A stretch of DNA of 64,000 nucleotides from Promethearchaeota archaeon (lineage in GTDB: Archaea; Asgardarchaeota; Lokiarchaeia; Sigyniarchaeales; SOKP01): contig JBHLNF010000008.1 of the NCBI GenBank assembly GCA_048937405.1, forward strand, positions 64,001 to 128,000, written 5' to 3'. Shown piece after piece: positions 3,935-64,000 of the stretch. Made by a program: the position numbers and the translations under genes. The notes beneath the pieces are model-generated. The model did no database searches and was not told the DNA's origin. It was given only the letters and a program-made list of their open reading frames with translations. How positions within the stretch are numbered: the first letter of the stretch is position 1; each line of letters opens with the position of its first letter.

Positions 3935-4060
3935 AGTTCTAATTTTTAATATTTTAAAATGAATATCATTACATTAAATCTAAAATTAGTAATTGAAATG
4001 CTTTTTAAAATTTAAAATATAATATTTAATTAAAAAAATATGATGAGGTTTTAAAGAATA

Positions 4061-5172: not shown

Positions 5173-5252
5173 CTGTTCAAAAAATTTTAACACTTTAAAA
5201 GCTTGTAAAATTAGAGAAACCTTTTAAATTAGAAAAATAAAAAAATTTATTC

Positions 5253-5828: not shown

Positions 5829-5849
5829 TTAAAATACTTTTTAATATTC

Positions 5850-6896: not shown

Positions 6897-7333
6897 TAAG
6901 CTCAGAAAATAAAATAAAAAACAAATCTATGTTTAGTGTATTCTCTCTTGATAGATTAAAAAACTTAAAATTAATAAAAATTTGTAAAAACAAAATAATT
7001 CATTACCATGATTTGAATATCGTGAAACTTACCTTTCACGTTAAATTCTATATATCAGCATAATATTTTACTTTGATATCTTTAAATATTATAAACGTTT
7101 GCTAAACATTCTTACTTTTTATGAAGAAAGTCTTACTTTTTTTTTTTATTTATTGATAAAAACGCTTCTATCTCATCAATTAACAAATTTTATAGACGTT
7201 GATTTCAGAAGGCTTAATAACCTCTTCAAAAATTAGAGGATTAGTTGTAAACAATTAAAATTGAATATAAAAAAAAAATTTAATAATAAATCTAATTAAA
7301 AGTAATCAATTATAAATTGATTATTTCTACAAT

Positions 7334-8377
7334 TTAACTATATGATTTGTATAAATGATTTGCGATTGTTGAAAACGCATAATTAACATTTTCTCCCAAG
7401 AGTGCTGAAGTCTCAACAAATTTCAGACTTAATTGATCTGCTAATTGAGTCGCCATTTCGGAAGTTACTTTCCTCTGTTCCGTTAAATCTCTTTTATTAC
7501 CAATAATAAATCCTTTTAAATCAACGGCTCTATCTTTTAGCTGTTCCATTACATCAGAATACCACTTAGGTATATTAGTGAAGGATTCAATTCGGGTTAA
7601 ATCAAAAACGAAAAATACTGCATCAGAACCTTTGTAAAAATGCTGTCTCATAGTTTGAAATTTTTGCTGACCGCCAATATCCCATAATGTCAACTGTATG
7701 ATAGAATCATCGATTTTAAAAACTTTGTCTGAAACCATAACACCAAGCGTGGGTACGTAATTTCTCCGGAATGCATTATTTGTATATCTTAATATTAATG
7801 ATGTCTTTCCAACACTAGGATCACCAACAATTATTATTTTAAATTGATAATCTATTAAATTTCGATCTTTAATTTTTAGTGCTGGAAATTCTTCTTTATC
7901 TTGCTGTGAAATCTCTTGTAGTTTTAATTCTTCTAAAAGACTCGATATATTAAATTCTAAATTCTCTAATATTTTTATGAAATCCTCCCTAGAACTCTCA
8001 GATTTTTCTAAATTTATAATATTAGGGACATTATTATTAAAAGGAACAGACAGCTCTTTAATATATTTGTAAAAAATTACATCGTCTACTTCCTGAAATA
8101 GTAATATTATTGCCGATTGACCAATTTCTCCACGTCTAGAAGGATCATGCCATTTTATAAATTTGACTAATCCTTTTAAATTCAATGAAGGAAAGGGTAG
8201 TATTACTAACGACTCGGGAATTTGCCCTTCCTCACCTGTTAAAATAGTTAAAGTTTTGATACTTATATGAATGAGGTTAATTTGAGAAAATTTAGCACCA
8301 CACCAAGCTACGGGATTTGGTCCCAATTCATCATTCATCTCTACATAGATTATGCCTGATATTAATTGTTGCGTCAT
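7334..8377 (-). CDS. Longin/uDENN-like domain fused to a Rab-like GTPase (paralogue of 5850..6896)
   Basis: GDPSVGKTS/WDIGGQ/NKRD/ETSA; N-terminal MNDELGPNP and DPSRRG; colinear with the neighbouring gene. Confidence 0.85.
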   Translation of the reverse strand: MTQQLISGIIYVEMNDELGPNPVAWCGAKFSQINLIHISIKTLTILTGEEGQIPESLVILPFPSLNLKGLVKFIKWHDPSRRGEIGQSAIILLFQEVDDVIFYKYIKELSVPFNNNVPNIINLEKSESSREDFIKILENLEFNISSLLEELKLQEISQQDKEEFPALKIKDRNLIDYQFKIIIVGDPSVGKTSLILRYTNNAFRRNYVPTLGVMVSDKVFKIDDSIIQLTLWDIGGQQKFQTMRQHFYKGSDAVFFVFDLTRIESFTNIPKWYSDVMEQLKDRAVDLKGFIIGNKRDLTEQRKVTSEMATQLADQLSLKFVETSALLGENVNYAFSTIANHLYKSYS

Positions 8378-8750
8378 AATTTTTATATATTGAAATTGAA
8401 AATGTGATTATTAAAAAATGGTCTGTGAATGATTCACTTCTAACTTATAATATAAATATTCCATTTTAATGATATCCATTTGAGAAAAATTTTATACAAT
8501 TTTACTTTGATTTAAAAAATTATGAATTCAGTAAAATCTTATTTCATTAAATTTTATCTTTAATTTTATCATTCCTTTATTTATTGTTAAAATTTATATT
8601 CAATAATTCTTCTAAAGATTTTAAATCTCATTTTATTTAATAAAATTTTTAATTTTGACTAATACATTATTATCGAGAAAGAGTTTTCAATTTCAAGTTG
8701 AAATTTATAAATTGTTTATCAAAATTTAAAATATATTCCCATAAATGAAA

Positions 8751-9026
8751 TTAATCTTTAACATTTTCTAAGATAGAGATGATTCTATAAACGGTAGTTC
8801 TTGCGTGAAATGGAATATTCGCATCTTGGGCAAGATCATCAACCATATACATAACATTACTAGCTCGAACACCAGGAGTGTCTTCTTCATTATTTAATTC
8901 ATTAATACTTCTTTGTGCAACCCTTTTAATATTTCGGGGTACACTACGGTCATTTATCATACCATTCAAAAGATATTCAACATTTTCAAAGGCTTTTTTT
9001 TCTTCTTCAGTTATTGCCCTTGGCAT
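8751..9026 (-). CDS. UPF0147 family protein
   Basis: DRSVPRNIKR...GVRAS...DANIPFHART pattern of this archaeal family. Confidence 0.85.
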   Translation of the reverse strand: MPRAITEEEKKAFENVEYLLNGMINDRSVPRNIKRVAQRSINELNNEEDTPGVRASNVMYMVDDLAQDANIPFHARTTVYRIISILENVKD

Positions 9027-9120
9027 TAAAGGATCACCAAAAAGAGTATATTCGATGGATAAATTGTTTAAAATGGAGAATTTTTTTTAAAATATAATTT
9101 TTTTGATTTTAAGAGAATAC

Positions 9121-12033
9121 TTAATATATACCAAATTCACGTATTTCTCGTTTAAGTTGGGGAATTTTTTCCTTGAAACCTTCTAATTTATTTTGATAAT
9201 TATTGAATAGAGTATCAAATTCTACAGCTTCTCCAATATCGATAGCTCGTACAAAATTATATGAAATTTGATGAATATCTTCAAATATTTGATCGAATTG
9301 TTCTGTGATTTCCAAGAGTCTTTTATTTTCAGTTTCACCTTGCTTTCTTACCATATTTCGAAGTTTACCACGTGGGATTCGTATTTTATCTATTAATTTG
9401 TCACATTCATTCAAAAATTCATATGCTTGCGTTTTATTTTTATCTATTAATTTAGCTTCAATTATTTCAGTTCGCCAAGTGTTTATTCTCCCTCTGGCAA
9501 ATGTATCGAAGTTCAATGAAAGTGAGTCTATTCCTTCTCTTACGAGAAATCGAAGAAAATCTGGATCATCACTAGGAGCTTGACCACAGATACCAACTTT
9601 TTTATTATATTGATGAGCTGTTTTTATTAAATGACTAACTGACCTCCTAATCGCTTCACTATTGGTATTATAATTATAAGTATTCATCAAGGGAATCATT
9701 TTTTCATTATCCCTTCCAACGCCATAGGTTAATTGAGTGAGATCATTTGAACCGATTGAGAAACCATCAAAATATTGACAAAAAATATCAGCACATAGTA
9801 TATTAGAAGGTATTTCTGCCATGACAAATACTTTTAATTCATTCTGACCACGAATTAATCCTTCACTTTCCATAATATCCATAATTTTTTTAGCTTCTTC
9901 AGGACTTCTGCAGAAGGGTAACATCGGAATTATATTTGTTAGACCCCAATCACGAGCTCTTTTAATAGCTCGTAATTCTAACATAAATGCATTTTGAAAT
10001 TCATCATGTACATATCTAGAACACCCTCTAAATCCTAGCATTGGATTATTTTCTTCTCCTTCGTAAATCCAACCACCTACGAGATTTGCATATTCATTCG
10101 TCTTAAAATCTGAAAGCCTTACCACACATTCTGCCATACTCTCATCTTCCAATTTTTTCCAAACACCAGCAGCAATGGTAGCAATTCCTTCTGCTAATTT
10201 ATGAACATAAAACTCTTCTTTATCATCGTATCCAATTGTTAATTCCCTAATTTTATCCAATGTCTGTTTTAATCTCAAAATTTCTTGGCTAAAAGGATCT
10301 TTATGATAAAGATCGCTTTTCTTTATATTTTCTATCCTTTTTCTTTGCTCTACTAGAATATCATACCTCATTATTAATGCTTCAAAATCTATTAATGCAT
10401 TTGGGTGAATTTGAATTTCATCATTTATAATAAATTCTAATCTTGCTAAGCCTGTACCATCAGGATACTTTCCAGAAGAGAGCGCTCCTTTGGGGATACC
10501 TAGATTAACCAATACTTTTGTTTTTGTATTTGGCAGTTTTGAGAATTCAACAGTATCCGAATCATATTCTACATCTTTTAACCAAATCCTCGATTCACCC
10601 TCGCTACAATCAATAGTAACATAATCTATCCCATTTCGTTGTTTCTCCTTAATAATTTGTGTGATATTGTCTGCACCAACGATAGAGGCTATATTTAATT
10701 CTCTTGAAACAATTGCAGCATGACAAGTAGGACCCCCTTTCTCAGTAATAACCCCACCAAGATTCTGCATATAAGATGTCCAATCTGGGTTTGTTTCCTC
10801 TGTAACAAGAATATCCCCTTGTTGTAATAAATAAGCATCGTTTATTGATTCTATTACTTTGACTTTCCCATATCCAATTCTTCGCCCAATAGCAATACCA
10901 GAATTTTCTACTAATAACTTTTGGTTAATTAAATCTTCAGGATCTTCAAGTAAATAATAAATTTCTTCTACATCACCTTTAATACTATGAACAGTTTCAG
11001 GTCGAGCTTGTACAATATATACTTTATTATCATTTCCAACGGCCCATTCAATATCCATTCTTTTTTTATAATGATCCCTAATTTTTTGAGCATATTTAGC
11101 TAAAGTCATAACTTCTTCTTCATTTAAGCAATACATCATTTGCTTTTCTTGAGGTACTGGTATTACTTCAGTTCCAATTTTACCGGATCCTTTAGAAAAT
11201 ACCATCATTTTCTCTTTTCTAACCAATTCTCTTCGAATAATTCTAAGATTTTGAGGACTATGCTTAAAAACAATAAATTCATCACCTTTTTCAACGCCTT
11301 GCACAATTAATTCACCTAAACCCCAAGTTCCTCTAATAACAACTACATTGGGATTACCACTATCAGGATCCTCTGTAAACATAACACCAGAAGCTTTTAC
11401 TCCTCCTAATCCCCCAGCCATTTGTTGAACTCCAACGCTCAATTTAACTGAAAAATGATCAAATCCCGCTCGTTCACGATACATTGTTGCCCTCGTGGTA
11501 AAAACTGATGCCATGTCCTTTAAAATGTATTCTAAAATTTCCTTTTCTCCAGTAATATTTAAATGGGTATCTTGTTGACCCGCGAATGAGGCATCAGGTA
11601 GATCTTCTGCTGTTGCTGAACTTCTCACAGCAAAGGTTGATTCACCACCAATTTTTTTTATTAAAGTATGATATGCATCAATAATTTCATCTGCTAGAGA
11701 GTCTGGTATTTTTGATTGTTCAATTACATATCGAATATTTGCACAAATTTTATCAACTTTTTCAACTGCTTTAATATCTTCTGATTTTAATTCATTAGAA
11801 ATCTTCTTAATATCTCTTTCAATTAATTCCCTTAAAGAAACTTCTTGTTCTTTAATTGTATAAAAATTAGTGTCTAAGACATAATCATAAGCTTTTGAAG
11901 TTGTAGCAAATCCCAGTGGGACAGAAATCCCAAAACTTAGCAGTTCTCCTAAAGAAGAATTTTTACCTCCTACTAGAGGAACATCATTTGCTCTAACATC
12001 TTCAAAAAATCTTATATAGTTATAATCAGACAT
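9121..12033 (-). CDS. ppsA: Phosphoenolpyruvate synthase (pyruvate, water dikinase)
   Basis: VGGKNSSLGE, AVRSSATAEDLPDASFAGQQDT, phospho-His motif TCHAAIVSRE, NPMLGFRG, FSIGSNDLTQ. Confidence 0.95.
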   Translation of the reverse strand: MSDYNYIRFFEDVRANDVPLVGGKNSSLGELLSFGISVPLGFATTSKAYDYVLDTNFYTIKEQEVSLRELIERDIKKISNELKSEDIKAVEKVDKICANIRYVIEQSKIPDSLADEIIDAYHTLIKKIGGESTFAVRSSATAEDLPDASFAGQQDTHLNITGEKEILEYILKDMASVFTTRATMYRERAGFDHFSVKLSVGVQQMAGGLGGVKASGVMFTEDPDSGNPNVVVIRGTWGLGELIVQGVEKGDEFIVFKHSPQNLRIIRRELVRKEKMMVFSKGSGKIGTEVIPVPQEKQMMYCLNEEEVMTLAKYAQKIRDHYKKRMDIEWAVGNDNKVYIVQARPETVHSIKGDVEEIYYLLEDPEDLINQKLLVENSGIAIGRRIGYGKVKVIESINDAYLLQQGDILVTEETNPDWTSYMQNLGGVITEKGGPTCHAAIVSRELNIASIVGADNITQIIKEKQRNGIDYVTIDCSEGESRIWLKDVEYDSDTVEFSKLPNTKTKVLVNLGIPKGALSSGKYPDGTGLARLEFIINDEIQIHPNALIDFEALIMRYDILVEQRKRIENIKKSDLYHKDPFSQEILRLKQTLDKIRELTIGYDDKEEFYVHKLAEGIATIAAGVWKKLEDESMAECVVRLSDFKTNEYANLVGGWIYEGEENNPMLGFRGCSRYVHDEFQNAFMLELRAIKRARDWGLTNIIPMLPFCRSPEEAKKIMDIMESEGLIRGQNELKVFVMAEIPSNILCADIFCQYFDGFSIGSNDLTQLTYGVGRDNEKMIPLMNTYNYNTNSEAIRRSVSHLIKTAHQYNKKVGICGQAPSDDPDFLRFLVREGIDSLSLNFDTFARGRINTWRTEIIEAKLIDKNKTQAYEFLNECDKLIDKIRIPRGKLRNMVRKQGETENKRLLEITEQFDQIFEDIHQISYNFVRAIDIGEAVEFDTLFNNYQNKLEGFKEKIPQLKREIREFGIY

Positions 12034-12144
12034 ATTAATGTATAGTCTCTTTGAATTGAAATGATGAAATTATCTTAAAATTATAATAATTCTCCTTCTG
12101 ATTATTAATTAAACTATCATAAAAAAAGTAACGCCAAAAATAGA

Positions 12145-12663
12145 TTATTTTAATTCGCTTTCAAATACGTTAAAATCAGAAATGTTATATAAGCAAAAGG
12201 CAACTTTTTCTATTTGAGTATCACCTTGTAAATATTCTTTAACTGTGTTTATCATAATTTTTGAACATCGCTCTATTGGAAAGCCGAATATACCGGTAGA
12301 TATCGCGGGAAATGCGATAGTTTTTAGCTTATGTTCATCCATTAATTTTAAACTATTTAAAGTGGCGTTTTTTAATTTCTCATCCTCGTTTCCCTCTCCC
12401 ATTCTTGGACCAACTGCATGGATTACATGTTTAGCTTTTAAATTGCCCCCATTGGTAATTACAGCACCACCTACAAAAGTCCCGCCAATTTTATTACATT
12501 CTTCTTGAATATTAGGTCCACCTTTTTTCCTGATTGCCCCAGCAACTCCTCCTCCTAATATAAGTTGGGCATTAGCAGCATTAACAATAGCATCTTTATC
12601 TAATTCAGTAATATCTCCTTGTACCAAACAAATTATAGATTCTTTTACTTTTATTTCTTTCAT
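12145..12663 (-). CDS. Macro domain protein (MacroD-type ADP-ribose hydrolase)
   Basis: GDIT, AIVNAAN, GGGVAGAI, HAVGP and PAISTGIFGFP motifs. Confidence 0.93.
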   Translation of the reverse strand: MKEIKVKESIICLVQGDITELDKDAIVNAANAQLILGGGVAGAIRKKGGPNIQEECNKIGGTFVGGAVITNGGNLKAKHVIHAVGPRMGEGNEDEKLKNATLNSLKLMDEHKLKTIAFPAISTGIFGFPIERCSKIMINTVKEYLQGDTQIEKVAFCLYNISDFNVFESELK

Positions 12664-12927
12664 TGTAAAAATTAATTATTTATTATTATTAAATTATTGA
12701 ACCTTTAAGAAATACAATTAAAATATCTTTTTTTTTGAATATGTTTTATTATTTCTTTTTTATTAAGGTTAAATTTATATTTTTAGAACTCACATTTCTT
12801 TATCTCTTTAATAAATCGATAATTTTTATTTTCTCTTAATAATTTAAATCATATATATAGTAATTAATTGGTTAATTAAGGAGATATTTAAGAAATAAGA
12901 AAAATTCTTAGTTTTCTAACAATAAAG

Positions 12928-13050
12928 ATGAAAAAAGAAGATATTTGTTATCTTTCTGCTTGCGAGATAGCAGAAAAAATAAAAACACAAGAGCTAACCT
13001 CAGAAGAAATTACCGAAACTATAATTGAGAGAATTGAAAAAATCAATTAA
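12928..13050 (+). pseudogene. N-terminal remnant of an amidase-signature family gene
   Basis: MKKEDICYLSACEIAEKIKTQELTSEEITETIIERIEKIN* resembles the first helices of amidase/GatA proteins and then stops. Confidence 0.6.
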
Positions 13051-13175
13051 GCTCTTATAAAAAAGAAAATCGATGAATTAAATTATCTTTAATCCTAAAA
13101 GAATATACTTGAACTATAATAGAGAAATTTTTTTAAATAGTTATTTATAAAAAAATTAATTAAAAAGAATCATTT

Positions 13176-13880
13176 TCATGATTCATCTTTACTCTTTTTG
13201 AATATCTCATCTAGTTTAGCCCTATCCTCATCAGACATTTTACTCATTGCTTCCATATTTTGCCGCATTAAATCCATCATTACTTTTTGCGAGACAAGTT
13301 GGTTTAATACAGGTAATGCTATTCTCATACGAGTTAATTCATAATGCATGATTTTTGCTGTTTCCCGCATCTCTTTCAAGTCATCTTTAGTCATTCCTTC
13401 TTCACCTATACCTGGACAGTCAGCATCTACTACTATAAAGTTTTTTCCATCAAATTCTAATGGATATGTTCGACAACTCAATGGACGATTTTCGTAGACT
13501 AAACATTTTTTATCATCCTTGTTATATAAAGGGCATTTTACGTCCAATAATTCTTCGATAGGCACAATACCAAATGGATCCTTAAGCTTAGATTCTTCTT
13601 CTCCCTCTTTTGGAGGTGGTGCTAAAGGTTTTAATATTAAATCAATCCCACCATCAGGTTTTTGATATATATCTAAATAGGGCATAAAATTAGCTACAAC
13701 TCCATTTCTCGCCCACATTTCTAGATCCCAAAAAGTAATAGGGATAGGCCCTCTAGCATCACAGCAGTTATCACAACGAGTACATTTAAATGAAAATTTT
13801 GCTTTTGGTTTATCATCAACAGCTTCTTTTTCATTTTCTTTTATTTCGGAATTTTGAGATTCTTTTTCTTCTTCAGACAT
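13176..13880 (-). CDS. YkgJ-family cysteine-cluster (CxxCxxCC) protein
   Basis: CTRCDNCC, CPLY, CLVYENRPLSCRTYP, CPGIG. Confidence 0.88.
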   Translation of the reverse strand: MSEEEKESQNSEIKENEKEAVDDKPKAKFSFKCTRCDNCCDARGPIPITFWDLEMWARNGVVANFMPYLDIYQKPDGGIDLILKPLAPPPKEGEEESKLKDPFGIVPIEELLDVKCPLYNKDDKKCLVYENRPLSCRTYPLEFDGKNFIVVDADCPGIGEEGMTKDDLKEMRETAKIMHYELTRMRIALPVLNQLVSQKVMMDLMRQNMEAMSKMSDEDRAKLDEIFKKSKDES

Positions 13881-14243
13881 AGAAATTTCACTTAATAATT
13901 TGATATGTTTAATTTATCATGACATAAATGAATTTAACCTAAAAAAAAAATTTTTAGCTTTAAGTTTAAAAAAATAAAACAATCATTTTAGTTCATTTAA
14001 ATTAAATAAATAATACATTTAAGTCTATTTTATTTAGCTAACTAATGAATAAAAAAATTACTATTACCTCAATACTTTAAAATAAGGAGATAGTTTTCTG
14101 ATAAAACTTAAAAACTCTGAATTTAAATAAATTAGTAGGAGATTTATTTCAAACCATAAATTTAATATAACTATCTATGTAAATTTCTATTAAATAAATT
14201 AAAAACAATATGATTTTCTATAAACACAAATTAAGGAAAAATT

Positions 14244-14837
14244 ATGTCTAAAGAATTGAGAAAAGAATTGCAAATAATGATTGAGGAAAAGTTAGGACAT
14301 CTATTTTTAGGTAATAAAAAGAAAGATGTTCGTTTATTAATGCTAAGACCAATTGATTTAATTGAATTTTCAGAATTTGCAGGAACTAATGCGGATGATA
14401 TAATAATTTGGGTTGGAAAATCTATTGGAAAGACATATGTTGAAAAATTTTTTCCTAATAAGGAATGGGTAAAAGAATCAATGGAAACAAAAATAGATGT
14501 GATCGTTGGTGTTCTTGAAGCACTGGAGTTAATGGGTTTTGGACATTTAGAACCTACATTTAAAAAAAAGGATGTTTCAATAGCAATAGAAGAACCTTTA
14601 GCCTTAGAAGAATATGATAACATCATGGCAAAAAACCTTTGTTTACTCAATCAAGGAGTTTTTACAGGAATATTTGATGCATTGCAAATTGATGTTGATG
14701 GAAAGGAAATTGAATGCGTTTTATTGGATGATGACAAATGTGTATTTAAATACGATTTACTTATTGATGAAATAGATGAAAGTCTCATAAAAAAAGAAGC
14801 AGAAAAAGTATATACTTTTTCACTACGCGACTTATAA
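14244..14837 (+). CDS. V4R / TRAPP(Bet3)-like domain protein
   Basis: VGKSIGK, LELMGFGHL, CLLNQGVFTGIF and EIECVLLDDDKCVF match the V4R pattern. Confidence 0.75.
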   Translation: MSKELRKELQIMIEEKLGHLFLGNKKKDVRLLMLRPIDLIEFSEFAGTNADDIIIWVGKSIGKTYVEKFFPNKEWVKESMETKIDVIVGVLEALELMGFGHLEPTFKKKDVSIAIEEPLALEEYDNIMAKNLCLLNQGVFTGIFDALQIDVDGKEIECVLLDDDKCVFKYDLLIDEIDESLIKKEAEKVYTFSLRDL

Positions 14838-15114
14838 AAGTAATTTTTATAATTGGATTTGAATTAATTCTATTTATTTCGGATTTTTTTATTAATAGAT
14901 GTTATTATGAATAAAATCATCTCTTTTAGGTTTTTTTTATAATATTGAACTCATTTAAAAGAGAACTTATAAACTTAGTATGTTATAATCATTCTAAAAT
15001 CTATAGTGTTAGAAGTAAATCGATAAAGTTAAAATTAATTAAGATTTCACTTTTCTAAGAAAGGTTTTTATTTCGTATTAAATATAATTTTATAAAAAAC
15101 TGCAAAAAATTGTT

Positions 15115-15345
15115 ATGAAGCCATTAATTATAAAAATGATTGGTTGGTTAATGTTAACATGTAATCTATTATTCGCTTTTGTAATAGGGATTACCATTCC
15201 ATTATTAGAATCAGAATATAATTATAATCTTGGAATTGTTATGATTCCATTACTTATCATTCTTAATTATATTATTGTAGATAGAATACATTATTATATA
15301 AAGCATTCAAAAGATAGGGAAGTCGAAATAGATGCAAAAAATTAA
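15115..15345 (+). CDS. Small two-TM membrane protein overlapping the archaeosortase start
   Basis: Two hydrophobic segments; 14-bp overlap with the next ORF. Confidence 0.6.
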   Translation: MKPLIIKMIGWLMLTCNLLFAFVIGITIPLLESEYNYNLGIVMIPLLIILNYIIVDRIHYYIKHSKDREVEIDAKN

Positions 15346-16249
15346 ACAATTGAAAGGGAGGATTAATTCATTAAGAAAAATAAAAAAACCTACAATTGAA
15401 TTTAATAATAATAAGTACATTTTTTCTATATGGTCTATACTCTTATTAGCTATTAGCGCACCTTTTTCTGCGTGGTTTATATTTTTATTCTTCGATTTGA
15501 GAATTAATTATTGGCTTCATGAGATAGTAGTGAAGCAAACTGTGTATCTCATGAATCTTTTTTTTAATATGGGGGCTGAAGCGCAATTTGCACCAAATGG
15601 AAAATATAACTGGAGATTTTTAATTCCAGGTCGAAGTCCAATATACTTTGAAACATTTTGTACTGGAATCCAGGCCATATGTATTTTTGCTGGAATTATC
15701 ATATTCACACCCCACAGTCAAGATCGAAATACAAAAGAAGATATTATTTGGAGGAAAACAAAAGCTCTTATTGTCTCATCAGTAATTTTTTATGTTGTTA
15801 ATATTATTAGAATGCTAATTCAAATTGATTTATATTATATTGGATATGATTGGAATGATATACATTTCTCAATAAGTGCAGCAAGTTCTTTTATTGCAGT
15901 AATAATTGTATTGCTAATGCACCGATGGATTCCAGAGTTCATTATCTCTATAATATATACAGGAACATTGGTAAGTGAGCCATTAAAAAAAAAGAGGAAA
16001 AAGTTAGTAAAGGAAATGGTGGAAAAAACAAATAAAGTAGATTTAAATTCAATGCGAAAAATACTAAGAATGGATAGAAAAACTTATTTAAAAGAAATGT
16101 CTGATTGGTCAAAAGATTTTGGCTATAATATTGACGGAGATTATTTAATAATTCCTTCTGAGAAAACCTTAAACTTTATAGAATTATTAATGCAAGAAAA
16201 ACCATTTCAGAAAGAAATAAAAGACTCTAGATCATCAATTGATAAATAA
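15332..16249 (+). CDS. Archaeosortase/exosortase family transpeptidase with a C-terminal soluble domain
   Basis: Multi-TM protein with a Cys-Arg-His triad pattern: FETFCTGIQ, VNIIRM, WNDIH. Confidence 0.85.
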   Translation: MQKIKQLKGRINSLRKIKKPTIEFNNNKYIFSIWSILLLAISAPFSAWFIFLFFDLRINYWLHEIVVKQTVYLMNLFFNMGAEAQFAPNGKYNWRFLIPGRSPIYFETFCTGIQAICIFAGIIIFTPHSQDRNTKEDIIWRKTKALIVSSVIFYVVNIIRMLIQIDLYYIGYDWNDIHFSISAASSFIAVIIVLLMHRWIPEFIISIIYTGTLVSEPLKKKRKKLVKEMVEKTNKVDLNSMRKILRMDRKTYLKEMSDWSKDFGYNIDGDYLIIPSEKTLNFIELLMQEKPFQKEIKDSRSSIDK

Positions 16250-57640: not shown

Positions 57641-58966
57641 TTACATACCTCCTTTTCTTGATGCTAATGTAAATTTTTCAAACGTACCAACAGGATCTTT
57701 AACTTGGGAAAGTAATTCCTCTTTCGATAAACTTACGTTAAATCCCTTTAGTACTGTATCAGCAAACCTCTCTGCTTGATTAACACCCCATTTGGTTTGA
57801 CCATAACAGCCTGAACATGGAGCATTAACTTTAATGCATAAGGCACCACAGCCAGCTTGAGTTACAGGACCCATACAAATATAACCTTGTTCAAGTAAAC
57901 AATCTTCCATATTTGGTAGTCCTTCATAATCTCGTTTAACTCTTGTCATTGTAGATTTACTTCCAATGATTCTTGGACATGTATCACAGACATTTGATAT
58001 TTCATGGAAATCGGGATTATCTCTTAAAAAGCTCATTAAATTCGAAGCAATTTCCTCAGTTGTAGGGGGAAGATTTGCTAATTGTGTCTCTGGTGCACCA
58101 CGTTTCTTTATTTGTTTTATAATATCACCAGCAAGATCAAAACCAGCCATTAAAGGAAGATTTAAAAACAGGGGTAAAAATTCAAAAATACTCTTTTTAT
58201 CTCCTGAACTTATGGCTCCAAGATTTTTTGTCATACTATTTAATTTTTCAGCTCTGACACCCACAGTTTTAGCTGGTCCCATACAACCTAAACATGGAGA
58301 TCCATTATTTGGACATTTCATTGAACATCCCATGCTTGTAATTGGTCCAAAACACAATTTACCTGCATCTAATAGACATCCAGATTGATTTAACGCACAA
58401 TCATTACAAAATGCCAAATTATTCATAGGGAATGGCTTTTGCCCGAGTAAAAACCCAATTGCACTATATATTTGTTGTGATTTTGGAGGACAACCAGATA
58501 TATATGCATCCACTTTGATTACCCTATCTACGGGTACAATCTTAGATTCAAAACCAGGAACATGTTCCGTTGGTTCTCCACCACTTTCATCTGCAATACT
58601 CTCTACTTGTGAGAATTTCCTGTCAATTAATTCTTGTATATCCCATTGGTTAGCTAATCCATGCACATTTCCATAACATGAACAACTACCAAAAGCTACA
58701 ATAATAGCACATTTTTGACGCATTAGCTTTGTACCTTCAACATCTTGTTTAGTTCGAAGGCTTCCTTCTATGAATCCAACGACAATTTCACCGTCTTCTC
58801 TAGCTTCCAATGAATCATACTTGAAATCGACTACTGCTGGCCAATAGACAATCTCTAACGCGGGCAAGACTGGCAAAAGGGCTAAATGTAAGTCAACTAA
58901 ACTCTGATGACAGCCCCAACAGTCACTATTTTGCCAAAATGCGACCTTAACAGGTATAGAGATCAC
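57641..58966 (-). CDS. vhuG: F420-non-reducing hydrogenase small subunit with a duplicated C-terminal Fe-S module
   Basis: CWGC, FGSC, SGCPP proximal ligands, then two copies of CxxC...CLL...CxGPxTxxGCxxxC...PCxGCxG. Confidence 0.9.
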   Translation of the reverse strand: MISIPVKVAFWQNSDCWGCHQSLVDLHLALLPVLPALEIVYWPAVVDFKYDSLEAREDGEIVVGFIEGSLRTKQDVEGTKLMRQKCAIIVAFGSCSCYGNVHGLANQWDIQELIDRKFSQVESIADESGGEPTEHVPGFESKIVPVDRVIKVDAYISGCPPKSQQIYSAIGFLLGQKPFPMNNLAFCNDCALNQSGCLLDAGKLCFGPITSMGCSMKCPNNGSPCLGCMGPAKTVGVRAEKLNSMTKNLGAISSGDKKSIFEFLPLFLNLPLMAGFDLAGDIIKQIKKRGAPETQLANLPPTTEEIASNLMSFLRDNPDFHEISNVCDTCPRIIGSKSTMTRVKRDYEGLPNMEDCLLEQGYICMGPVTQAGCGALCIKVNAPCSGCYGQTKWGVNQAERFADTVLKGFNVSLSKEELLSQVKDPVGTFEKFTLASRKGGM

Positions 58967-59806: not shown

Positions 59807-60370
59807 TTAAAATGAACCGCAACCTTTACACTTTCCATCTAAATATGCTGCACAATCATAACATATATTCCCACATTTTTCTTCTTGACTTTCTTGGCTG
59901 AATAAATTAATTGGTAAAAACTTAGGATTGATGAGATCCGATACAAATATTATTGCAGAGTGAAGTATTCCTTTTTTATTCGTAGGGCCGCAATAATTGA
60001 TATATCGATGTAAAACATCTACATTTTGCCCGATTATTCCTAATATCAAATTATATTGACCCGTAACTTGTGCCAGAAGAAAAACTCTTGGACATTCTGA
60101 ATAAGCTTCAATTATATTTTGTACTTCCTCATAGTTTTTCATTTCAATCAAGATAAAAAGAGCTTTAAATTTTAGCTTGTTAATATTTAAGTTAGCTTGA
60201 ACTTTGAGTACTTCAGATTCTTCTAATTTAGAAATTCGTTTAGCAATACCGGTATGACTCATAGTTTCATTACCAAATTTATAAATGACTTTTTCTAAAG
60301 TTGTTAGGCTTTGACGACCTTCTTTAAACAATTCAGCTATAATTTGTCTATCAACATTATCTATTAGCAT
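59807..60370 (-). CDS. Lrp/AsnC-family regulator with a C-terminal Cys cluster
   Basis: HTH (DRQII...GRQSL...KRISKLE), VTGQYNL, tail CGNICYDCAAYLDGKCKGC. Confidence 0.88.
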   Translation of the reverse strand: MLIDNVDRQIIAELFKEGRQSLTTLEKVIYKFGNETMSHTGIAKRISKLEESEVLKVQANLNINKLKFKALFILIEMKNYEEVQNIIEAYSECPRVFLLAQVTGQYNLILGIIGQNVDVLHRYINYCGPTNKKGILHSAIIFVSDLINPKFLPINLFSQESQEEKCGNICYDCAAYLDGKCKGCGSF

Positions 60371-61246
60371 TTTTTCTAATTGATATTAATTTTTTTAATT
60401 ATAACGTTATTTCTAGTTTTTAAAATTTGTCGATTATAAAAATTCAGTTAACCTATATATCTAATAAAAAATTTTACATATTCCACTTTTATATTAACAT
60501 ATCCATCGCTTCTTAAACTTTCTTGAAATAACTCTGCAATATATTGTTTGTATTGATTACTATTAATGATTAATAATAATTTTCATAACTTCATCTAAAA
60601 ATTTTGTATTCCATTGTCAATTTCTATTTTCACACAAAATTTCAGCTTTCAATTTGAAATCTTTTATGGATTTTTGTTGTAGAATGAAACTGGAAAGTAA
60701 TAAACTGTTTAAACCTTCCTGAATCCTTATAAGGAATCAATTTCTATTTATATAATCATTTCTAATAATATAATTATGCCTTTAGATCAAATTGATAAAC
60801 AGATTCTAAAATTGTTATTTGAAAATGGTCGAGAAAGCCTAAGCTCTTTGAGTATAAACGTTTTAAAATCAAACAAAGAATCAATGAGTCATGCAGGTAT
60901 TGCAAAACGAATTTCAAAATTGGAAGATGAACTTATACTTAAGATACAAGGTAATATTGGAATTAATAATTTAAACTATTTTGCTGCATTTATCTTGATT
61001 GAAATGAAAAATTATGAGGAACTACAAAATATAATTGAAGCATATTCAGAATGTCCAAGAGTTTTTCTGCTGGCTCAAGTTACGGGTCAATATAATTTGA
61101 TATTTGGAATTATCGGGCAAGATATGGATATTTTGCATCGATATATCAATTATTGCGGCCCTACGAATAAAAAAGGAATACTTCACTCTGCAATAATATT
61201 TGTATCGGATCTCATCAATCCTAAGTTTTTACCAATTAATTTATTC
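59900..61246. repeat. Perfect 111-bp inverted repeat (59900-60010 and 61136-61246) inside the two Lrp genes
   Basis: Direct comparison: catcgatatatc...aatttattc is identical to the reverse complement of the other copy; flanks stay highly similar over roughly 300 bp in total. Confidence 0.9.
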
Positions 61247-61339
61247 GGCCAAGAAAGTCAGGAAGAAAAATGTGGGAATATATGTTGTGATTGTGCAGCA
61301 TTTATCGATGGAAAGTGTAGAGGATGTGGTAACTTTTAA
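60776..61339 (+). CDS. Lrp/AsnC-family regulator with a C-terminal Cys cluster (paralogue of 59807..60370)
   Basis: Same length and architecture; tail CGNICCDCAAFIDGKCRGC. Confidence 0.88.
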   Translation: MPLDQIDKQILKLLFENGRESLSSLSINVLKSNKESMSHAGIAKRISKLEDELILKIQGNIGINNLNYFAAFILIEMKNYEELQNIIEAYSECPRVFLLAQVTGQYNLIFGIIGQDMDILHRYINYCGPTNKKGILHSAIIFVSDLINPKFLPINLFGQESQEEKCGNICCDCAAFIDGKCRGCGNF

Positions 61340-61663: not shown

Positions 61664-62335
61664 ATGAACAAGAAAATTTTACGATTGTTCATTATATTCT
61701 TCTTTGTTTTTGCAACTATAGGAACTGTTAGTGCTTGGCCTGGTTATATGTCAGAATGGGAAGAAACTGATCATGGATCTTGTCATGCGGGAACCTATAC
61801 TGAGTCTACAGGTACACTATCTGCAACAATTACTCCTGTAAATACCACAACTGTTACACTCGATCCTGGAACTACCTTTAATGTTACCCTTGATATTACA
61901 GGATTTACTGCGGCAGCAAATATGAGCGTTTTAGTTGGTATATCCGCTAGAATTAGTGATAATCACGATTTCTTTTTTGGTGTTCATAATGATAGTGGAG
62001 AGCTTGGAGCAACTGCCTTTGCGGTTGAATTAGACGCCTCTGGAAATGCTGATAACACAGTAACTATTATTGCATTCGCTCCCACTACTGGTGGTTCTCA
62101 TACATTAACAATTGTAGCTGTTGAAGGAGGAGAATCATACGCTACATCTCATGAATTTAATTACATTAAAACTGAAATAACAGTTACAGTTAAATCTACG
62201 GGTGGAGGGAGTATTCCAGGATATAGTATATTCTTCATTAGTTCTATTGGAGTTATGACTACTATTCCTATAGTGTTAATTACCCTTCGTAAAAGAAAAA
62301 ATCATAAGGAGTTGAATTCAATTGAAGAAGAATAA
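61664..62335 (+). CDS. Secreted beta-rich protein with an HxxCH motif and an IPGY-TM-basic sorting tail
   Basis: Signal peptide ending VSA, DHGSCHAG, tail GGGSIPGY-TM-RKRK. Confidence 0.75.
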   Translation: MNKKILRLFIIFFFVFATIGTVSAWPGYMSEWEETDHGSCHAGTYTESTGTLSATITPVNTTTVTLDPGTTFNVTLDITGFTAAANMSVLVGISARISDNHDFFFGVHNDSGELGATAFAVELDASGNADNTVTIIAFAPTTGGSHTLTIVAVEGGESYATSHEFNYIKTEITVTVKSTGGGSIPGYSIFFISSIGVMTTIPIVLITLRKRKNHKELNSIEEE

Positions 62336-62996
62336 AATGATTGTGTTAGCTGTAATTACTACCATGATATTTGGTGTTGTAGGTTATGTAGTTGCTCATC
62401 CCTCAGAAATTGTAGATTATACGGGAGCAGATCATGTTTCAACTGGATGTCATGGTACAAATGGTGTTGCTTCTAGCGGAACTCTTCAAGTATCAACCTC
62501 AACTTCTGGTAAGTTGATTACCCTTACTGTTACAATACAAGGATTTACAGATGCACTTCCGACTAGTAATAATAGATCTGGGACATTTTCTATTGGAATT
62601 CCTTATAATCTTGGAGATAATAGGGAATTTGGGCTAGGTATGACGCAAAATACTGTTAATGGCGAGGCTAATTATTGGGGAATCGGTATATGGGACGTTG
62701 AATTAGATTCAAATGGAAATACAGTTAATCCCTTGAGATTTAGAGTGCTAGCTCCTGAAACTGATGGAACATATGATTTAATTGTTGCTGTTATAAATGG
62801 AGTAAATTCAGAGGGAGATTACGAAAGTATTATTTATATGCACAAAATAATATCTGTTGCAGTAACAGGTGGAAGCATAACAATAGCTTCTCTAACTATG
62901 ATCTTTCCTCTAAATAATATATTTCTTTATGCAACTTTTGGATTATTTAGTACTGGGATGATAATTTTCGTGTTTAAGCGTAGAAAAATTAGATAA
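62322..62996 (+). CDS. Secreted membrane-anchored paralogue with an HxxxxCH motif
   Basis: Signal peptide ending VVA, DHVSTGCHG; shared GTL, GFT, DNxxF, VELDxxGN and APxT blocks; C-terminal TM then KRRK. Confidence 0.75.
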   Translation: MKKNKMIVLAVITTMIFGVVGYVVAHPSEIVDYTGADHVSTGCHGTNGVASSGTLQVSTSTSGKLITLTVTIQGFTDALPTSNNRSGTFSIGIPYNLGDNREFGLGMTQNTVNGEANYWGIGIWDVELDSNGNTVNPLRFRVLAPETDGTYDLIVAVINGVNSEGDYESIIYMHKIISVAVTGGSITIASLTMIFPLNNIFLYATFGLFSTGMIIFVFKRRKIR

Positions 62997-63075
62997 AATT
63001 AATTAAGTCCAACTATAACAATCAATTTTTTTTTTATAAACCTTAAAATTTTAAATGAAAAAACAAATTTTTTAA

Positions 63076-63882
63076 ATGTCTGTTAAAAAATTGCAGGAAC
63101 GATCTAATTCGAATTTAAAGAGCATAATGATACGAAATAAAAAAGATCAATTGGATCTATTGAAAATCGTTAAAGATCATTTATTATTAACAATTTCACT
63201 TATGATATTAATTATTAATTTATTATTAATTTTAATTTTAACATCAAATAATCTAATTATTTGGAGTTCACCTAATCGAATTGTCTATATTATTTTTTTT
63301 TACCATGTATCCGGAGCATGGCTTTCATATTTCTCCTTTGGAATTAGTTTGATTTTTCATATTCTATTCATAAAGTCTCGTAAAAATATTTGGTTTTACT
63401 TTGGTAAAAATAGCATACTAGTTGGAGTATTTTTTTCTGGATTTACTCTTATAACAGGTTCGCTCTGGTTCAATGCTACATCGGGAGATTATAATAATAT
63501 TTTTTGGGTATGGGGTGATGCTCGACAGACTACAACATTAATATTATTCCTTTCCTATTTATCTTATTTGGTATTTGCTAAAATGATTGAAGATAGGGAA
63601 AAAAAGGCTAAATTAACAGCACTATTAGGTATTGTGCTATTTCCAACAGTTCCATTAAGTTACATTTCAACAATAGTTTTTACAAGTTTACATCCTTTAA
63701 TTAACCCAACTCCTGGTGAACCTGGAAATATTTACTGGGATCCTCTGAAATTATTTATGTTATTTTTCAATTTAATTGCAATGACCATATTATTTGTGTA
63801 TATTATAAAAGAACTAACTTATTTAGATAAAAAAAAAGAGGAATTGGATAAAATTAGACAAATTCGTTTATTGAGGGATTAA
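63076..63882 (+). CDS. ccmC: Cytochrome c biogenesis heme-handling protein CcmC
   Basis: Six TM segments, FYHVSGAW, Trp-rich loop TGSLW...WVWGDARQTT, SLHP. Confidence 0.85.
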   Translation: MSVKKLQERSNSNLKSIMIRNKKDQLDLLKIVKDHLLLTISLMILIINLLLILILTSNNLIIWSSPNRIVYIIFFYHVSGAWLSYFSFGISLIFHILFIKSRKNIWFYFGKNSILVGVFFSGFTLITGSLWFNATSGDYNNIFWVWGDARQTTTLILFLSYLSYLVFAKMIEDREKKAKLTALLGIVLFPTVPLSYISTIVFTSLHPLINPTPGEPGNIYWDPLKLFMLFFNLIAMTILFVYIIKELTYLDKKKEELDKIRQIRLLRD

Positions 63883-63888
63883 TTAAAG

Positions 63889-64000
63889 ATGTCAATAGAG
63901 TATCTGGACCAAGATTTACTAACAATAATTATAAGTTATTTGTTATTCTGGGCTATTTTAATCATCCTAATTTTATATCCAAAACTAAAGTTAAAAAAAG
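63889..64000 (+). CDS. Possible CcmD-like small membrane protein (partial)
   Basis: MSIEYLDQDLLTIIISYLLFWAILIILILYPKLKLKK...: single TM with a Y-x3-W pattern, 6 bp after ccmC. Confidence 0.55.
   Translation, partial: MSIEYLDQDLLTIIISYLLFWAILIILILYPKLKLKK

What the first reader, a model, noticed from the sequence alone, without database searches (positions are those of the whole stretch)
61664..64000. Single-cysteine H-x(2-4)-C-H surface proteins beside ccmC/ccmD: candidate non-canonical c-type cytochromes
Seen: two paralogous secreted, C-terminally anchored proteins each contain exactly one Cys, in DHGSCH and DHVSTGCH near the mature N terminus. ccmC and a ccmD-like ORF follow on the same strand. 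The second protein would begin with His after signal cleavage. Established: Ccm normally attaches heme to CxxCH, and single-thioether attachment is known from euglenozoan (A/F)xxCH cytochromes. Inference: a one-thioether or His/Cys-linked heme protein, heme chaperone or metal-binding protein displayed on the cell surface, possibly for extracellular electron transfer or heme capture in a lineage usually considered fermentative.
Basis: partly seen in the sequence, partly recalled or inferred. Interest (0 to 1): 0.75.

Follow-up and report, generated by a model that had tools for sequence, protein, structure and literature searches.

The report
Lokiarchaeal one-cysteine HxnCH surface cytochromes
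A Lokiarchaeon keeps a complete haem-attachment (Ccm) gene cluster, and its only plausible clients are three exported proteins in which the universal CxxCH haem-binding motif reads H-x(2-4)-C-H, which points to an undescribed type of c-type cytochrome and a possible route for moving electrons out of cells thought to be purely fermentative.

Summary
P1 (61664-62335) and P2 (62322-62996) are exported, C-terminally anchored paralogues with one Cys each, in DHGSCH and DHVSTGCH. ccmC and a ccmD-like ORF follow. Just beyond the window lie ccmE, ccmB, ccmA, ccmF and a third relative, P3 (HSESGCH), fused to a 4-helix membrane domain and followed by an FAD dehydrogenase and a CCG iron-sulfur protein.

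- **Decisive comparison:** Thorarchaeial orthologues of P3 carry C-x(2-5)-C-H in 116 of 116 N-complete sequences, 64 of them canonical CxxCH. Lokiarchaeial ones carry H-x(2 or 4)-C-H in 116 of 117. The His aligns on the first Cys, and a tree needs one change.
- **Substrates:** this genome has no other exported CxxCH protein.
- **Synteny and co-occurrence:** gene order holds in all 15 Loki loci examined. All 12 genomes with strong family hits have Ccm.
- **Machinery:** Loki CcmE stops right after its Cys (…QCS*, no Tyr), and Loki CcmF lacks the C-terminal outer domain. All haem-ligand His residues are kept.

Best reading (about 0.68): cytochrome-c-derived haem proteins with one thioether, matured by a remodelled System I, perhaps forming an outward electron conduit. 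Caveats: covalent haem is untested, and the genome lacks HemB and HemC. Earlier first-reader notes of this scan flagged the same locus. I found no paper on it.

The parts
61664..62335 (+). P1: exported 223-aa protein with signal peptide (cleavage predicted VSA|WP), haem-motif segment, Ig-like beta-sandwich (about residues 46-181), IPGY + TM + RKRK tail (Loki-CTERM-like)
   Evidence: ORF. One Cys. 34 homologues, all in Asgard MAGs. D36, H37, C40, H41 and P26 are invariant. AF2 model. Loki-CTERM NF033507 scores 15.9 bits, below the 19.9 cut-off.
61769..61786 (+). P1 motif D-H-G-S-C-H (H37-x2-C40-H41): proposed single-thioether haem site. Cys40 would make the thioether, His41 would be the axial ligand, and His37 sits in the place of the first Cys of CxxCH.
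   Evidence: Sequence. Invariant columns. One family member has DHGGANCH, so the spacing varies.
62322..62996 (+). P2: paralogue of P1, 224 aa, TTG start overlapping the P1 stop region, signal peptide (VVA|HP), beta-sandwich, C-terminal TM + KRRKIR
   Evidence: An exhaustive search of 1.84 billion representatives found only 27 clusters. Of the 26 newly examined, 24 have H-x(2-5)-C-H and none has CxxCH.
62430..62453 (+). P2 motif D-H-V-S-T-G-C-H (H38-x4-C43-H44)
   Evidence: Sequence. Aligned with the P1 motif in A1.
63076..63882 (+). CcmC (268 aa): haem-handling membrane protein with WWD-type motif FWVWGDARQTT and both flanking His (FYHVSGA, SLHP)
   Evidence: PF01578 at 55.6 bits, above cut-off. 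Alignment to E. coli CcmC 7F02_C shows the His60, WWD and His184 equivalents.
63889..64000 (+). ccmD-like small ORF (48 aa, one TM helix). It runs off the window and ends at extrapolated coordinate 64035 (L001 2889-3035). Further cluster genes beyond the window, in L001 coordinates (window coordinate = L001 + 61000): CcmE 3050-3388 (+), CcmB 3394-4119 (-), CcmA 4132-4839 (-), CcmF 5026-6717 (-), P3 6910-7782 (+), FAD dehydrogenase 7805-9298 (+), CCG/4Fe-4S protein 9402-10745 (+).
   Evidence: The small ORF is conserved between ccmC and ccmE in 15 of 15 Loki loci. PF04995 CcmD scores 22.3 bits, E 1.4e-4, below cut-off.
60776..61339 (+). Lrp/AsnC-type regulator (187 aa) with a C-terminal Cys-rich tail; likely regulator of the cluster
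   Evidence: Pfam HTH_AsnC-type and AsnC_trans_reg, sub-threshold. PDB relatives are FL11-type regulators. A 187-aa Lrp gene sits at the same place in L002, L004 and L005. It is not AhbA/B: PF17805 is not found in the genome.
59807..60370 (-). Second, divergently transcribed Lrp/AsnC-type regulator (187 aa) with the same Cys-rich tail
   Evidence: Paired 187-aa genes also occur in L004 and L005.

Best explanation
P1, P2 and the downstream P3 are descendants of c-type cytochromes. In them the first Cys of the C-x(n)-C-H haem-binding motif has been replaced by His. They are the substrates, and apparently the only substrates, of the adjacent streamlined System I (CcmABC(D)EF).

Proposed steps, all inferred rather than shown:
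- CcmABC(D) loads haem on the penultimate Cys of a truncated CcmE.
- CcmF transfers the haem to the exported apoprotein.
- The motif Cys (P1 C40) forms one thioether, presumably to the 4-vinyl as the second Cys of CxxCH does.
- The following His (H41) is the proximal axial ligand.
- The upstream His (H37) lies where the 2-vinyl thioether would be.
- The conserved X-Pro mature N-terminus may supply the distal ligand, as in cytochrome f.

P1 and P2 are displayed on the cell surface through a Loki-CTERM-like anchor. P3 joins the same haem module to a 4-helix membrane domain with invariant His residues. It is co-transcribed with an FAD dehydrogenase and an HdrD/GlcF-like CCG iron-sulfur protein. 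Together these would form a conduit that carries electrons from a cytoplasmic 2-hydroxy-acid-type dehydrogenase across the membrane to surface cytochromes and on to an external acceptor or partner. Haem would have to be scavenged.
For: Shown here:
- **Motif conservation.** D-H-x(n)-C-H is invariant in the P1/P2 family and present in 24 of 26 divergent cluster representatives. P3 orthologues have Hx2CH (82) or Hx4CH (34), that is 116 of 117 N-complete sequences.
- **Homology to true haem motifs.** The Thorarchaeial P3 orthologues from genome loci score E 1e-26 to 4e-31 against the Loki P3 profile, matching both the ectodomain and the membrane domain. In the wider set of Thorarchaeial orthologues, C-x(2-5)-C-H is present in 116 of 116, including 64 canonical CxxCH. 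In profile alignments the Loki His column is occupied by the first Cys, for example ...TECGDCH... against consensus ...ddHdeCH.... The tree needs one C/H change, on a branch with 100/99 support.
- **Complete Ccm.** Complete System I next to the genes. CcmC keeps both His and the WWD motif. CcmF keeps the WWD motif and all four His in at least 18 of 19 sequences.
- **No other substrate.** No exported CxxCH protein among 6521 ORFs. The Thor-type 8-haem cytochrome was not found in 70 genomes of the family.
- **Synteny and co-occurrence.** The order P1/P2-ccmC-D-E-(B,A,F)-P3-FAD-CCG holds in all Loki loci fetched. All 12 family-f1 genomes with strong hits have PF01578.
- **Machinery changes in the His-type lineage.** CcmE ends ...QCS* in 15 of 15 Loki loci against ...QCPSKYE in 5 of 5 Cys-type clusters outside family f1. 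CcmF lacks a C-terminal outer domain of about 100 aa. CcdA was found in 1 of 16 Ccm-positive Loki genomes against 31 of 40 Ccm-positive Thor genomes (hand tally).
- **P3 membrane domain.** His166, His197 and His236 are invariant, and four TM helices are predicted.
Against: - No experiment shows haem on these proteins.
- The E. coli Ccm handles single-Cys cytochromes very poorly and traps them on CcmE (PMC3268396), so this system would need a different release chemistry.
- The genome, scored 100% complete, lacks HemB, HemC and AhbA/B, so haem cannot be made by known routes. This also holds for Thorarchaeia that have ordinary multihaem cytochromes (HemB in 1 of 76), so it does not single out the Loki proteins.
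- The His-to-Cys spacing varies from 2 to 5. A few paralogues have CH with no upstream His or Cys (L016, L023), so the His is not indispensable everywhere.
- AF2 gives low confidence for the motif segment. No fold search returned a cytochrome-specific match.
- All the machinery co-variations trace to one lineage split, so they count as one evolutionary event, not independent replicates.
Confidence: 0.68

Rival explanations
1. The proteins are haem-capture or haem-relay proteins, a hemophore or NEAT-like function. They would bind scavenged haem reversibly through Cys/His or His/His ligation and pass it to the cell or to the Ccm proteins. They would not be covalent electron-transfer cytochromes.
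For: The genome lacks HemB, HemC and AhbA/B, so haem must come from outside. The architecture is a surface-anchored Ig-like sandwich with a sorting-signal tail, which recalls sortase-anchored NEAT proteins (established knowledge, not tested).
Against: The orthologues with C-x(n)-C-H are classical covalent motifs. P3 is fused to a His-bearing membrane bundle and coupled to FAD and Fe-S redox partners, which fits electron transfer rather than haem import. A haem lyase (CcmF) with all catalytic His is retained. Thorarchaeia are equally HemB-less yet keep ordinary cytochromes.
Confidence: 0.12
2. After the Cys-to-His change the site became a mononuclear metal site (Cu, Ni, Zn or Fe bound by His-Cys-His, possibly with the N-terminal amine). 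The proteins would be metal-binding or metallochaperone surface proteins, and the ccm neighbourhood would be a historical leftover.
For: His-x(n)-Cys-His is a plausible soft-metal site. A conserved mature N-terminus could form a His-brace-like site in P2. Weak structural similarity to PmoB and AmoB cupredoxin domains (Z 6.7-6.8, inside the background).
Against: If the ccm genes had no substrate they should decay. Instead all haem-ligand residues are kept, and the cluster is syntenic over proteins only 45-55% identical. The N-terminal His of P2 is not conserved. There is no Pfam or NCBIfam copper-protein match. The motif column alternates only with Cys of true haem motifs.
Confidence: 0.1
3. 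The proteins are ordinary surface (S-layer-associated or adhesion) proteins. The HxnCH motif would have a structural or unknown role unrelated to any cofactor.
For: Generic Ig/macroglobulin-like fold. Relatives with 800-960 aa and many Ig-like domains. N-glycosylation sequons (sequence).
Against: It does not explain the invariance of exactly D-H...C-H, the homology to CxxCH proteins, the strict co-occurrence with Ccm, or the fusion to a His-bearing membrane bundle with redox partners.
Confidence: 0.05

Closest known systems
Archaeal streamlined System I (CcmABCEF) as characterised in Methanosarcina acetivorans (PMC9084895)
   Same: CcmA, B, C, E and F are present, with no CcmH or CcmI seen in the cluster. 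CcmE uses Cys, not His. CcmC and CcmF keep the WWD motifs and haem-ligand His residues.
   Different: CcmE stops one residue after the Cys (...QCS*) and so lacks the Tyr of the CXXXY motif, which that paper calls universal in archaea. CcmF lacks the C-terminal outer domain. A conserved ccmD-like ORF is present, although CcmD is reported absent from archaea. The apparent substrates have HxnCH, not CxxCH.
Thorarchaeial orthologues (about 400-aa P3-type and 205-aa P1-type proteins with CxxCH, Cx3CH, Cx4CH or Cx5CH)
   Same: Homologous ectodomain and 4-TM domain. Same position of the motif after an X-Pro mature N-terminus. Same FAD-dehydrogenase and CCG-protein neighbours. Same variable motif spacing.
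   Different: Two Cys instead of His + Cys. One extra Ig-like domain. CcmE with CPSKY and a full-length CcmF. 8-haem cytochromes in the same clusters.
Euglenozoan mitochondrial cytochromes c and c1 with (A/F)XXCH (single thioether)
   Same: Only the second Cys of the motif is kept, so a single thioether would be expected (established knowledge).
   Different: No homology. Those are mitochondrial class I cytochromes matured by a system other than Ccm (established knowledge). Here the replaced residue is a conserved His, not Ala or Phe, and a System I cluster is linked.
Cytochrome f
   Same: Layout: a signal peptide cleaved before an aromatic-Pro N-terminus, a haem motif 10-20 residues later, a beta-sandwich body and a single C-terminal TM anchor. 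In cytochrome f the N-terminal amine is the sixth ligand (established knowledge). Pro at +2 is invariant in the P1 and P3 families.
   Different: No sequence or fold match was recovered. Cytochrome f has CxxCH. N-terminal ligation here is conjecture.
HdrDE-type and GlcDF/Dld-type membrane redox modules
   Same: A CCG-domain Fe-S protein plus an FAD-binding dehydrogenase encoded next to a His-bearing membrane protein.
   Different: The membrane partner is not HdrE-like. It is a 4-helix bundle fused to an outward-facing cytochrome-derived domain. No quinone or methanophenazine link is evident.

Membership tests
c-type cytochrome | CXXCH (or CXnCH) haem-binding motif with two Cys | tested here: not met
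   P1 HGSCH, P2 HVSTGCH, P3 HSESGCH; one Cys in the motif. The function may still be cytochrome-like.
c-type cytochrome | Homology to proteins with a canonical haem-binding motif at the same position | tested here: met
   Thor orthologues: 116 of 116 have C-x(2-5)-C-H. The first Cys aligns to the Loki His.
c-type cytochrome | Export to the outer face of the membrane | tested here: met
   N-terminal hydrophobic signal with AxA-type sites in all three proteins (sequence). No dedicated signal-peptide predictor was available.
c-type cytochrome | Covalently bound haem | not testable with these tools
   Needs haem stain, pyridine hemochrome and mass spectrometry.
System I (Ccm) cytochrome c maturation | CcmA ABC ATPase and CcmB permease | tested here: met
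   PF00005 at 105 bits; PF03379 at 42.7 bits, above the 24.9 cut-off.
System I (Ccm) cytochrome c maturation | CcmC with WWD motif and two flanking His | tested here: met
   PF01578 above cut-off. Alignment to 7F02_C. TIGR01191 at 75 bits, below its cut-off of 186.
System I (Ccm) cytochrome c maturation | CcmE with haem-binding H/CxxxY | tested here: inconclusive
   PF03100 at 32.7 bits, above 24.6. The Cys is present but the protein ends ...QCS*, so there is no Tyr, in 15 of 15 Loki loci.
System I (Ccm) cytochrome c maturation | CcmF with WWD motif, two outer His and two TM His (haem b) | tested here: met
   PF01578 at 85 bits. H202, H293, H331 and H516 are conserved in at least 18 of 19 sequences. 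The C-terminal outer domain is missing.
System I (Ccm) cytochrome c maturation | CcmD small membrane protein | tested here: inconclusive
   48-aa ORF; PF04995 at 22.3 bits, below 25.6, E 1.4e-4. Its position is conserved in 15 of 15 loci.
System I (Ccm) cytochrome c maturation | Thiol-reduction branch (CcdA/DsbD) | tested here: not met
   PF02683 was not found in the own genome; it occurs in 1 of 16 Ccm-positive genomes of the family. This would be expected if there is no Cys pair to reduce.
Loki-CTERM / PGF-CTERM-type sorted surface proteins | C-terminal tripartite signal matching NF033507 | tested here: inconclusive
   P1 scores 15.9 bits, below 19.9. Of 22 family members, 2 match Loki-CTERM and 3 match Heimdall-CTERM at E <= 0.01. 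The IPG[FY]-TM-RKRK pattern is conserved.
Cytochrome f | Fold and N-terminal amine ligation | tested here: inconclusive
   Cytochrome f was not among the listed fold matches. The motif segment has pLDDT below 60.
Cupredoxin / His-brace copper proteins (rival) | Recognisable copper-site family signature | tested here: inconclusive
   No Pfam or NCBIfam hit. PmoB and AmoB domain matches at Z 6.7-6.8 lie within background.

The most novel reading that the evidence does not exclude
A lineage of Lokiarchaeia has evolved a new covalent haem-attachment chemistry. The motif Cys makes the usual thioether, and the conserved upstream His makes a His-vinyl bond, as CcmE His130 and cyanobacterial GlbN His117 do. 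This would be catalysed by a co-adapted System I with a Tyr-less CcmE and a shortened CcmF. The resulting surface cytochromes, together with the P3/FAD/CCG conduit, would give haem-auxotrophic, supposedly fermentative Asgard archaea a route for extracellular or direct interspecies electron transfer using scavenged haem.
Probability: 0.2. Interest if true: 0.92.

Novelty: new variant of a known kind. Interest (0 to 1): 0.8.

Why it matters
CxxCH and its maturation systems are among the most conserved features of bioenergetics. System I is known to reject single-Cys substrates (PMC3268396), and archaeal CcmE is described as universally CXXXY (PMC9084895). A natural Ccm system whose only clients carry H-x(n)-C-H, with a CcmE that lacks the Tyr, would be a new haem-attachment variant. 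It would also be a ready-made natural experiment on how haem leaves CcmE.

Biologically, it would give Lokiarchaeia a candidate outward electron conduit: dehydrogenase, then Fe-S protein, then membrane His-bundle, then surface haem proteins. Lokiarchaeia are the Asgard group used as models for the archaeal host of eukaryogenesis and are viewed as syntrophic fermenters. The absence of haem synthesis points to dependence on haem from partners or sediment.

For annotation, screens that count CxxCH motifs will score these genomes as cytochrome-free, and that would be wrong.

Tried and rejected
- **Fold searches.** The P1 and P3 models gave only generic Ig/macroglobulin-like sandwiches and generic 4-helix bundles. 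Matches to b561, Dcytb, STEAP and cytochrome c' had Z 8-9, below the level that means anything for helical bundles. No cytochrome f or DOMON match appeared in the lists.
- **ESM Atlas.** Only sub-0.9 leads, 'Reelin domain-containing'.
- **Pfam and NCBIfam.** No family for P1, P2 or P3. The DUF1344 and GRASP_targ hits are sub-threshold noise.
- **Lrp pair as AhbA/B.** I tested whether the neighbouring Lrp pair could be AhbA/B siroheme decarboxylase, which would have supplied a haem pathway. Rejected: the closest structures are FL11-type regulators, and PF17805 is not found in the genome.
- **Other Ccm substrates.** I looked for other substrates in the genome. The CxxCH hits are cytoplasmic Cys-rich, zinc-finger or HNH-like proteins or spurious ORFs.
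- **Literature.** Searches on Asgard or Lokiarchaea with Ccm, c-type cytochromes, multihaem cytochromes, or extracellular electron transfer found nothing on this. [quoted passage not shown]
- **UniRef name.** The UniRef name of one P3 orthologue, 'Cytochrome oxidase subunit I profile domain-containing protein', looks like a spurious profile match.
Full report
**Observation**

The window comes from contig C26 of a 4.47-Mb, 29-contig archaeal genome of about 27% G+C, scored 100% complete. At 61664-62335 and 62322-62996 lie two + strand ORFs of 223 and 224 aa. They are paralogues (E 2e-12). Each has one Cys, in D-H-G-S-C-H (nt 61769-61786) and D-H-V-S-T-G-C-H (nt 62430-62453). Both start with a hydrophobic signal and end in a TM helix with a basic tail. 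In P1 the tail is preceded by IPGY and weakly matches the Loki-CTERM sorting domain (15.9 bits against a 19.9 cut-off). That match, together with the names on homologues, places the genome in the Lokiarchaeia/Promethearchaeota. A CcmC (PF01578) and a 48-aa one-helix ORF follow.

**Beyond the window**

I fetched the next 15 kb (L001). The cluster continues as follows:

| Gene | Length | Strand | Evidence |
|---|---|---|---|
| CcmE | 112 aa | + | PF03100 above cut-off |
| CcmB | 241 aa | - | PF03379 above cut-off |
| CcmA | 235 aa | - | ABC ATPase |
| CcmF | 563 aa | - | PF01578 |
| P3 | 290 aa | + | exported, motif T-H-S-E-S-G-C-H |
| FAD dehydrogenase | 497 aa | + | PF01565, starts 22 bp after P3 |
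| Fe-S protein | 447 aa | + | two CCG domains and a 4Fe-4S dicluster |

P3 has an Ig-like ectodomain followed by four predicted TM helices.

**Is this the only candidate substrate?**

- I called 6521 ORFs of at least 60 aa. Of these, 48 contain CxxCH. They are Cys-rich cytoplasmic proteins, zinc-finger or HNH-like proteins, or junk ORFs. None is a plausible exported cytochrome.
- Scanning all 1135 ORFs with a signal-like start for a CH dipeptide near the N-terminus and few Cys returned P1, P2 and P3 as the only exported candidates.
- The 8-haem cytochrome found in Thorarchaeial ccm clusters was not found in 70 genomes of this family (that call had no positive control inside it).

**Conservation**

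- P1 has 34 homologues (52-89% identical), all from Asgard MAGs. D36, H37, C40, H41 and P26 (the +2 residue after the predicted cleavage site) are invariant. One member reads DHGGANCH.
- An exhaustive HMMER pass of P2 over 1.84 billion representatives found only 27 clusters. Of the 26 newly examined, 24 carry H-x(2-5)-C-H and none carries CxxCH.
- P3 has 195 homologues. Of the 117 listed with an intact N-terminus, 82 have Hx2CH and 34 have Hx4CH.
- In the P3 alignment, P28, H34, C39 and H40 are invariant, as are the membrane-domain residues H166, H197 and H236. H233 is at least 90% conserved. The cytoplasmic loop NENKFVKxHG is nearly invariant.

**The key comparison**

Searching 301 genomes of the phylum with the P1/P2 profile gave strong hits in 12 genomes of the same family (f1) and weak hits in another family (f9). 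NCBI names on its proteins identify f9 as Thorarchaeia. I fetched those loci.

- The f9 proteins of 403-408 aa match the Loki P3 profile at E 1e-26 to 4e-31, over both the ectodomain and the membrane domain.
- They are followed by the same FAD and CCG genes.
- At the motif they read C-DASG-CH, C-STT-CH or C-SSLET-CH.
- A 205-aa, C-terminally anchored f9 protein reads ...FPTSNTECGDCH.... In the profile alignment its first Cys falls on the Loki His column.
- A wider search with the Thor protein returned 116 N-complete orthologues, all with two Cys: 64 CxxCH, 42 Cx4CH, 7 Cx5CH and 3 Cx3CH.

So the same protein family carries a classical c-type haem-binding motif in Thorarchaeia and H-x(n)-C-H in Lokiarchaeia, with the same 2-or-4 spacing polymorphism. 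A maximum-likelihood tree of 50 sequences separates the two types on one branch with 100/99 support, which means a single change. A few paralogues have CH with neither His nor Cys upstream: G222/L016, and G181/L023 in a third family.

**Linkage**

In all 15 Loki loci examined the order is P1/P2, ccmC, small ORF, ccmE, then ccmB/ccmA/ccmF on the other strand, then P3, the FAD enzyme and the CCG protein. Some relatives add an 800-960-aa surface protein with the same N-terminal module. Across the phylum sample, all 12 f1 genomes with strong profile hits have PF01578. The three further Ccm-positive f1 genomes are fragmentary or have partial hits.

**The machinery differs in the His-type lineage**

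- **CcmE.** It ends ...QIL(T/I/V)QCS (one locus ...QCST) in 15 of 15 Loki loci. The five Cys-type clusters outside family f1 have ...QCPSKYE.... That is the archaeal CXXXY motif whose Cys binds haem in Methanosarcina and which has been called universal in archaea (PMC9084895).
- **CcmF.** Loki CcmF keeps the WWD motif and all four His (own H202, H293, H331, H516). It lacks roughly 100 residues of C-terminal outer domain that Thor CcmF has.
- **CcdA.** It reduces the Cys pair of apocytochromes. It was not found in the own genome and occurs in 1 of 16 Ccm-positive f1 genomes, against 31 of 40 Ccm-positive f9 genomes (hand tally). CcdA is also common in Ccm-negative f9 genomes, so this is soft evidence.
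- **Small ORF.** The ORF between ccmC and ccmE is conserved (ISYxLFW...ILILYPKLRLKK) and scores 22.3 bits on PF04995 CcmD, just under the cut-off. Archaea are said to lack CcmD.

All these differences map to one lineage split and must be counted as one event.

**Haem supply**

HemB, HemC and AhbA/B-type domains were not found in this genome. HemB is absent from 68 of 68 f1 genomes sampled. It is also absent from 75 of 76 f9 and 20 of 21 f24 genomes, although 40 and 17 of those have Ccm, and f9 clusters encode 8-haem cytochromes. The HemB search does work in the phylum, finding it in 9 of 11 f16 genomes. Ccm-bearing Asgard lineages therefore seem to be haem auxotrophs in general. This is a caveat for physiology, but it does not discriminate against the Loki proteins.

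**Structure**

AF2 models give an Ig-like sandwich for P1 (residues 46-181; mean pLDDT 72) and a sandwich plus a 4-helix membrane bundle for P3 (mean pLDDT 76). The motif segment is modelled poorly. Foldseek and the exhaustive aligner return only generic sandwiches (complement MG domains at Z 8-9) and generic helical bundles. There is no informative match, and none was expected for an apo model.

**Mechanism proposed**

Shown:
- ancestry from CxnCH cytochromes;
- an intact, linked and co-occurring System I;
- no other substrate in the genome;
- redox-partner genes fused or adjacent to P3.

Inferred:
- Cys40 forms one thioether and His41 is the axial ligand.
- His37 sits by the 2-vinyl. It may be unlinked, or covalently linked as in CcmE(His) or GlbN.
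- The invariant X-Pro N-terminus may ligate iron, as Tyr1-Pro2 does in cytochrome f.
- P3 with its conserved His residues carries electrons from the FAD/CCG dehydrogenase across the membrane.
- P1 and P2, held by a Loki-CTERM-like anchor, relay the electrons outward.

Single-Cys cytochromes are very poor substrates of the E. coli Ccm and stay trapped on CcmE (PMC3268396). The Tyr-less CcmE and shortened CcmF may therefore be the adaptations that allow release. That is conjecture.

**Rivals**

The rivals considered are reversible haem capture, a His-Cys-His metal site, and a cofactor-less surface protein. Each fails to explain at least one of three facts: retention of an intact haem lyase, homology to CxxCH proteins, and the fused redox module. 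None is excluded without biochemistry.

**Novelty**

Seven literature searches found no description. A transporter survey notes only a putative haem exporter in Loki. First-reader notes of this scan had flagged the same locus, the CcmE end, the cytochrome f-like layout and the conduit idea. I tested these here rather than relying on them. I class the finding as a new variant of a known kind: c-type cytochromes and System I.

Noticed in passing
phylum-wide genome searches; no window coordinates: Most Ccm-bearing Asgard genomes sampled lack HemB (Thorarchaeia-like f9: HemB in 1 of 76 but Ccm in 40 of 76; f24: 1 of 21 against 17 of 21), even though f9 clusters encode 8-haem cytochromes. This suggests widespread haem auxotrophy combined with cytochrome c use.
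   Followed up: partly
window 63889-64000 and on (L001 2889-3035); L002-L017: A conserved 45-59-aa one-helix ORF sits between ccmC and ccmE in 15 of 15 Loki loci and in some Thor clusters. It matches Pfam CcmD just below threshold (22.3 bits against 25.6), although CcmD is reported to be absent from archaea.
   Followed up: partly
window 59807-60370 (-) and 60776-61339 (+): Two divergently transcribed 187-aa Lrp/AsnC regulators share a C-terminal Cys-rich tail (CGNIC.DCAA..DGKC.GCG.F). Such genes accompany the cluster in relatives. A possible metal-, redox- or haem-sensing switch.
   Followed up: partly
L006 7976-10852, L007 10931-13798, L008 7774-10170, L009 7876-10737, L010 8724-11354, L011 9590-12280: Relatives carry 800-960-aa surface proteins with the same N-terminal HxnCH module, one or two Cys in total, many Ig-like domains and a Loki-CTERM-like tail. 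The gene lies next to ccmF inside the cluster and is absent from the window's genome.
   Followed up: partly
L016 (G222:C58) 7149-15360: A second set of modules: P3-like proteins with CH but no upstream His or Cys (VVLGCH, NTLGCH), each followed by a 420-460-aa polytopic membrane protein and a CCG protein. The same contig has the only CcdA found in a Ccm-positive genome of the family.
   Followed up: partly
L002 4140-5297: A 385-aa protein with an EB_dh domain (PF09459, a DOMON-type haem-binding domain) lies just upstream of the HxnCH genes in a distant relative of the cluster.
   Followed up: no
window 57641-58966 (-): A 441-aa [NiFe]-hydrogenase small subunit (PF01058), unusually long and Cys-rich, lies next to the cluster. 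The same 440-aa gene and a large subunit neighbour the cluster in L002 and L004, so hydrogenase and the haem cluster may form one conserved island.
   Followed up: no
L001 10823-12961 (-): A 712-aa leucine-rich-repeat protein lies directly after the CCG gene. A 757-aa LRR protein also lies beside the cluster in L004 and L005.
   Followed up: no
protein P0125 (P3 orthologue from the Loki's Castle sediment metagenome): UniRef names it 'Cytochrome oxidase subunit I profile domain-containing protein'. This is probably a spurious profile match to the His-bearing helices, and it could mislead annotation.
   Followed up: no
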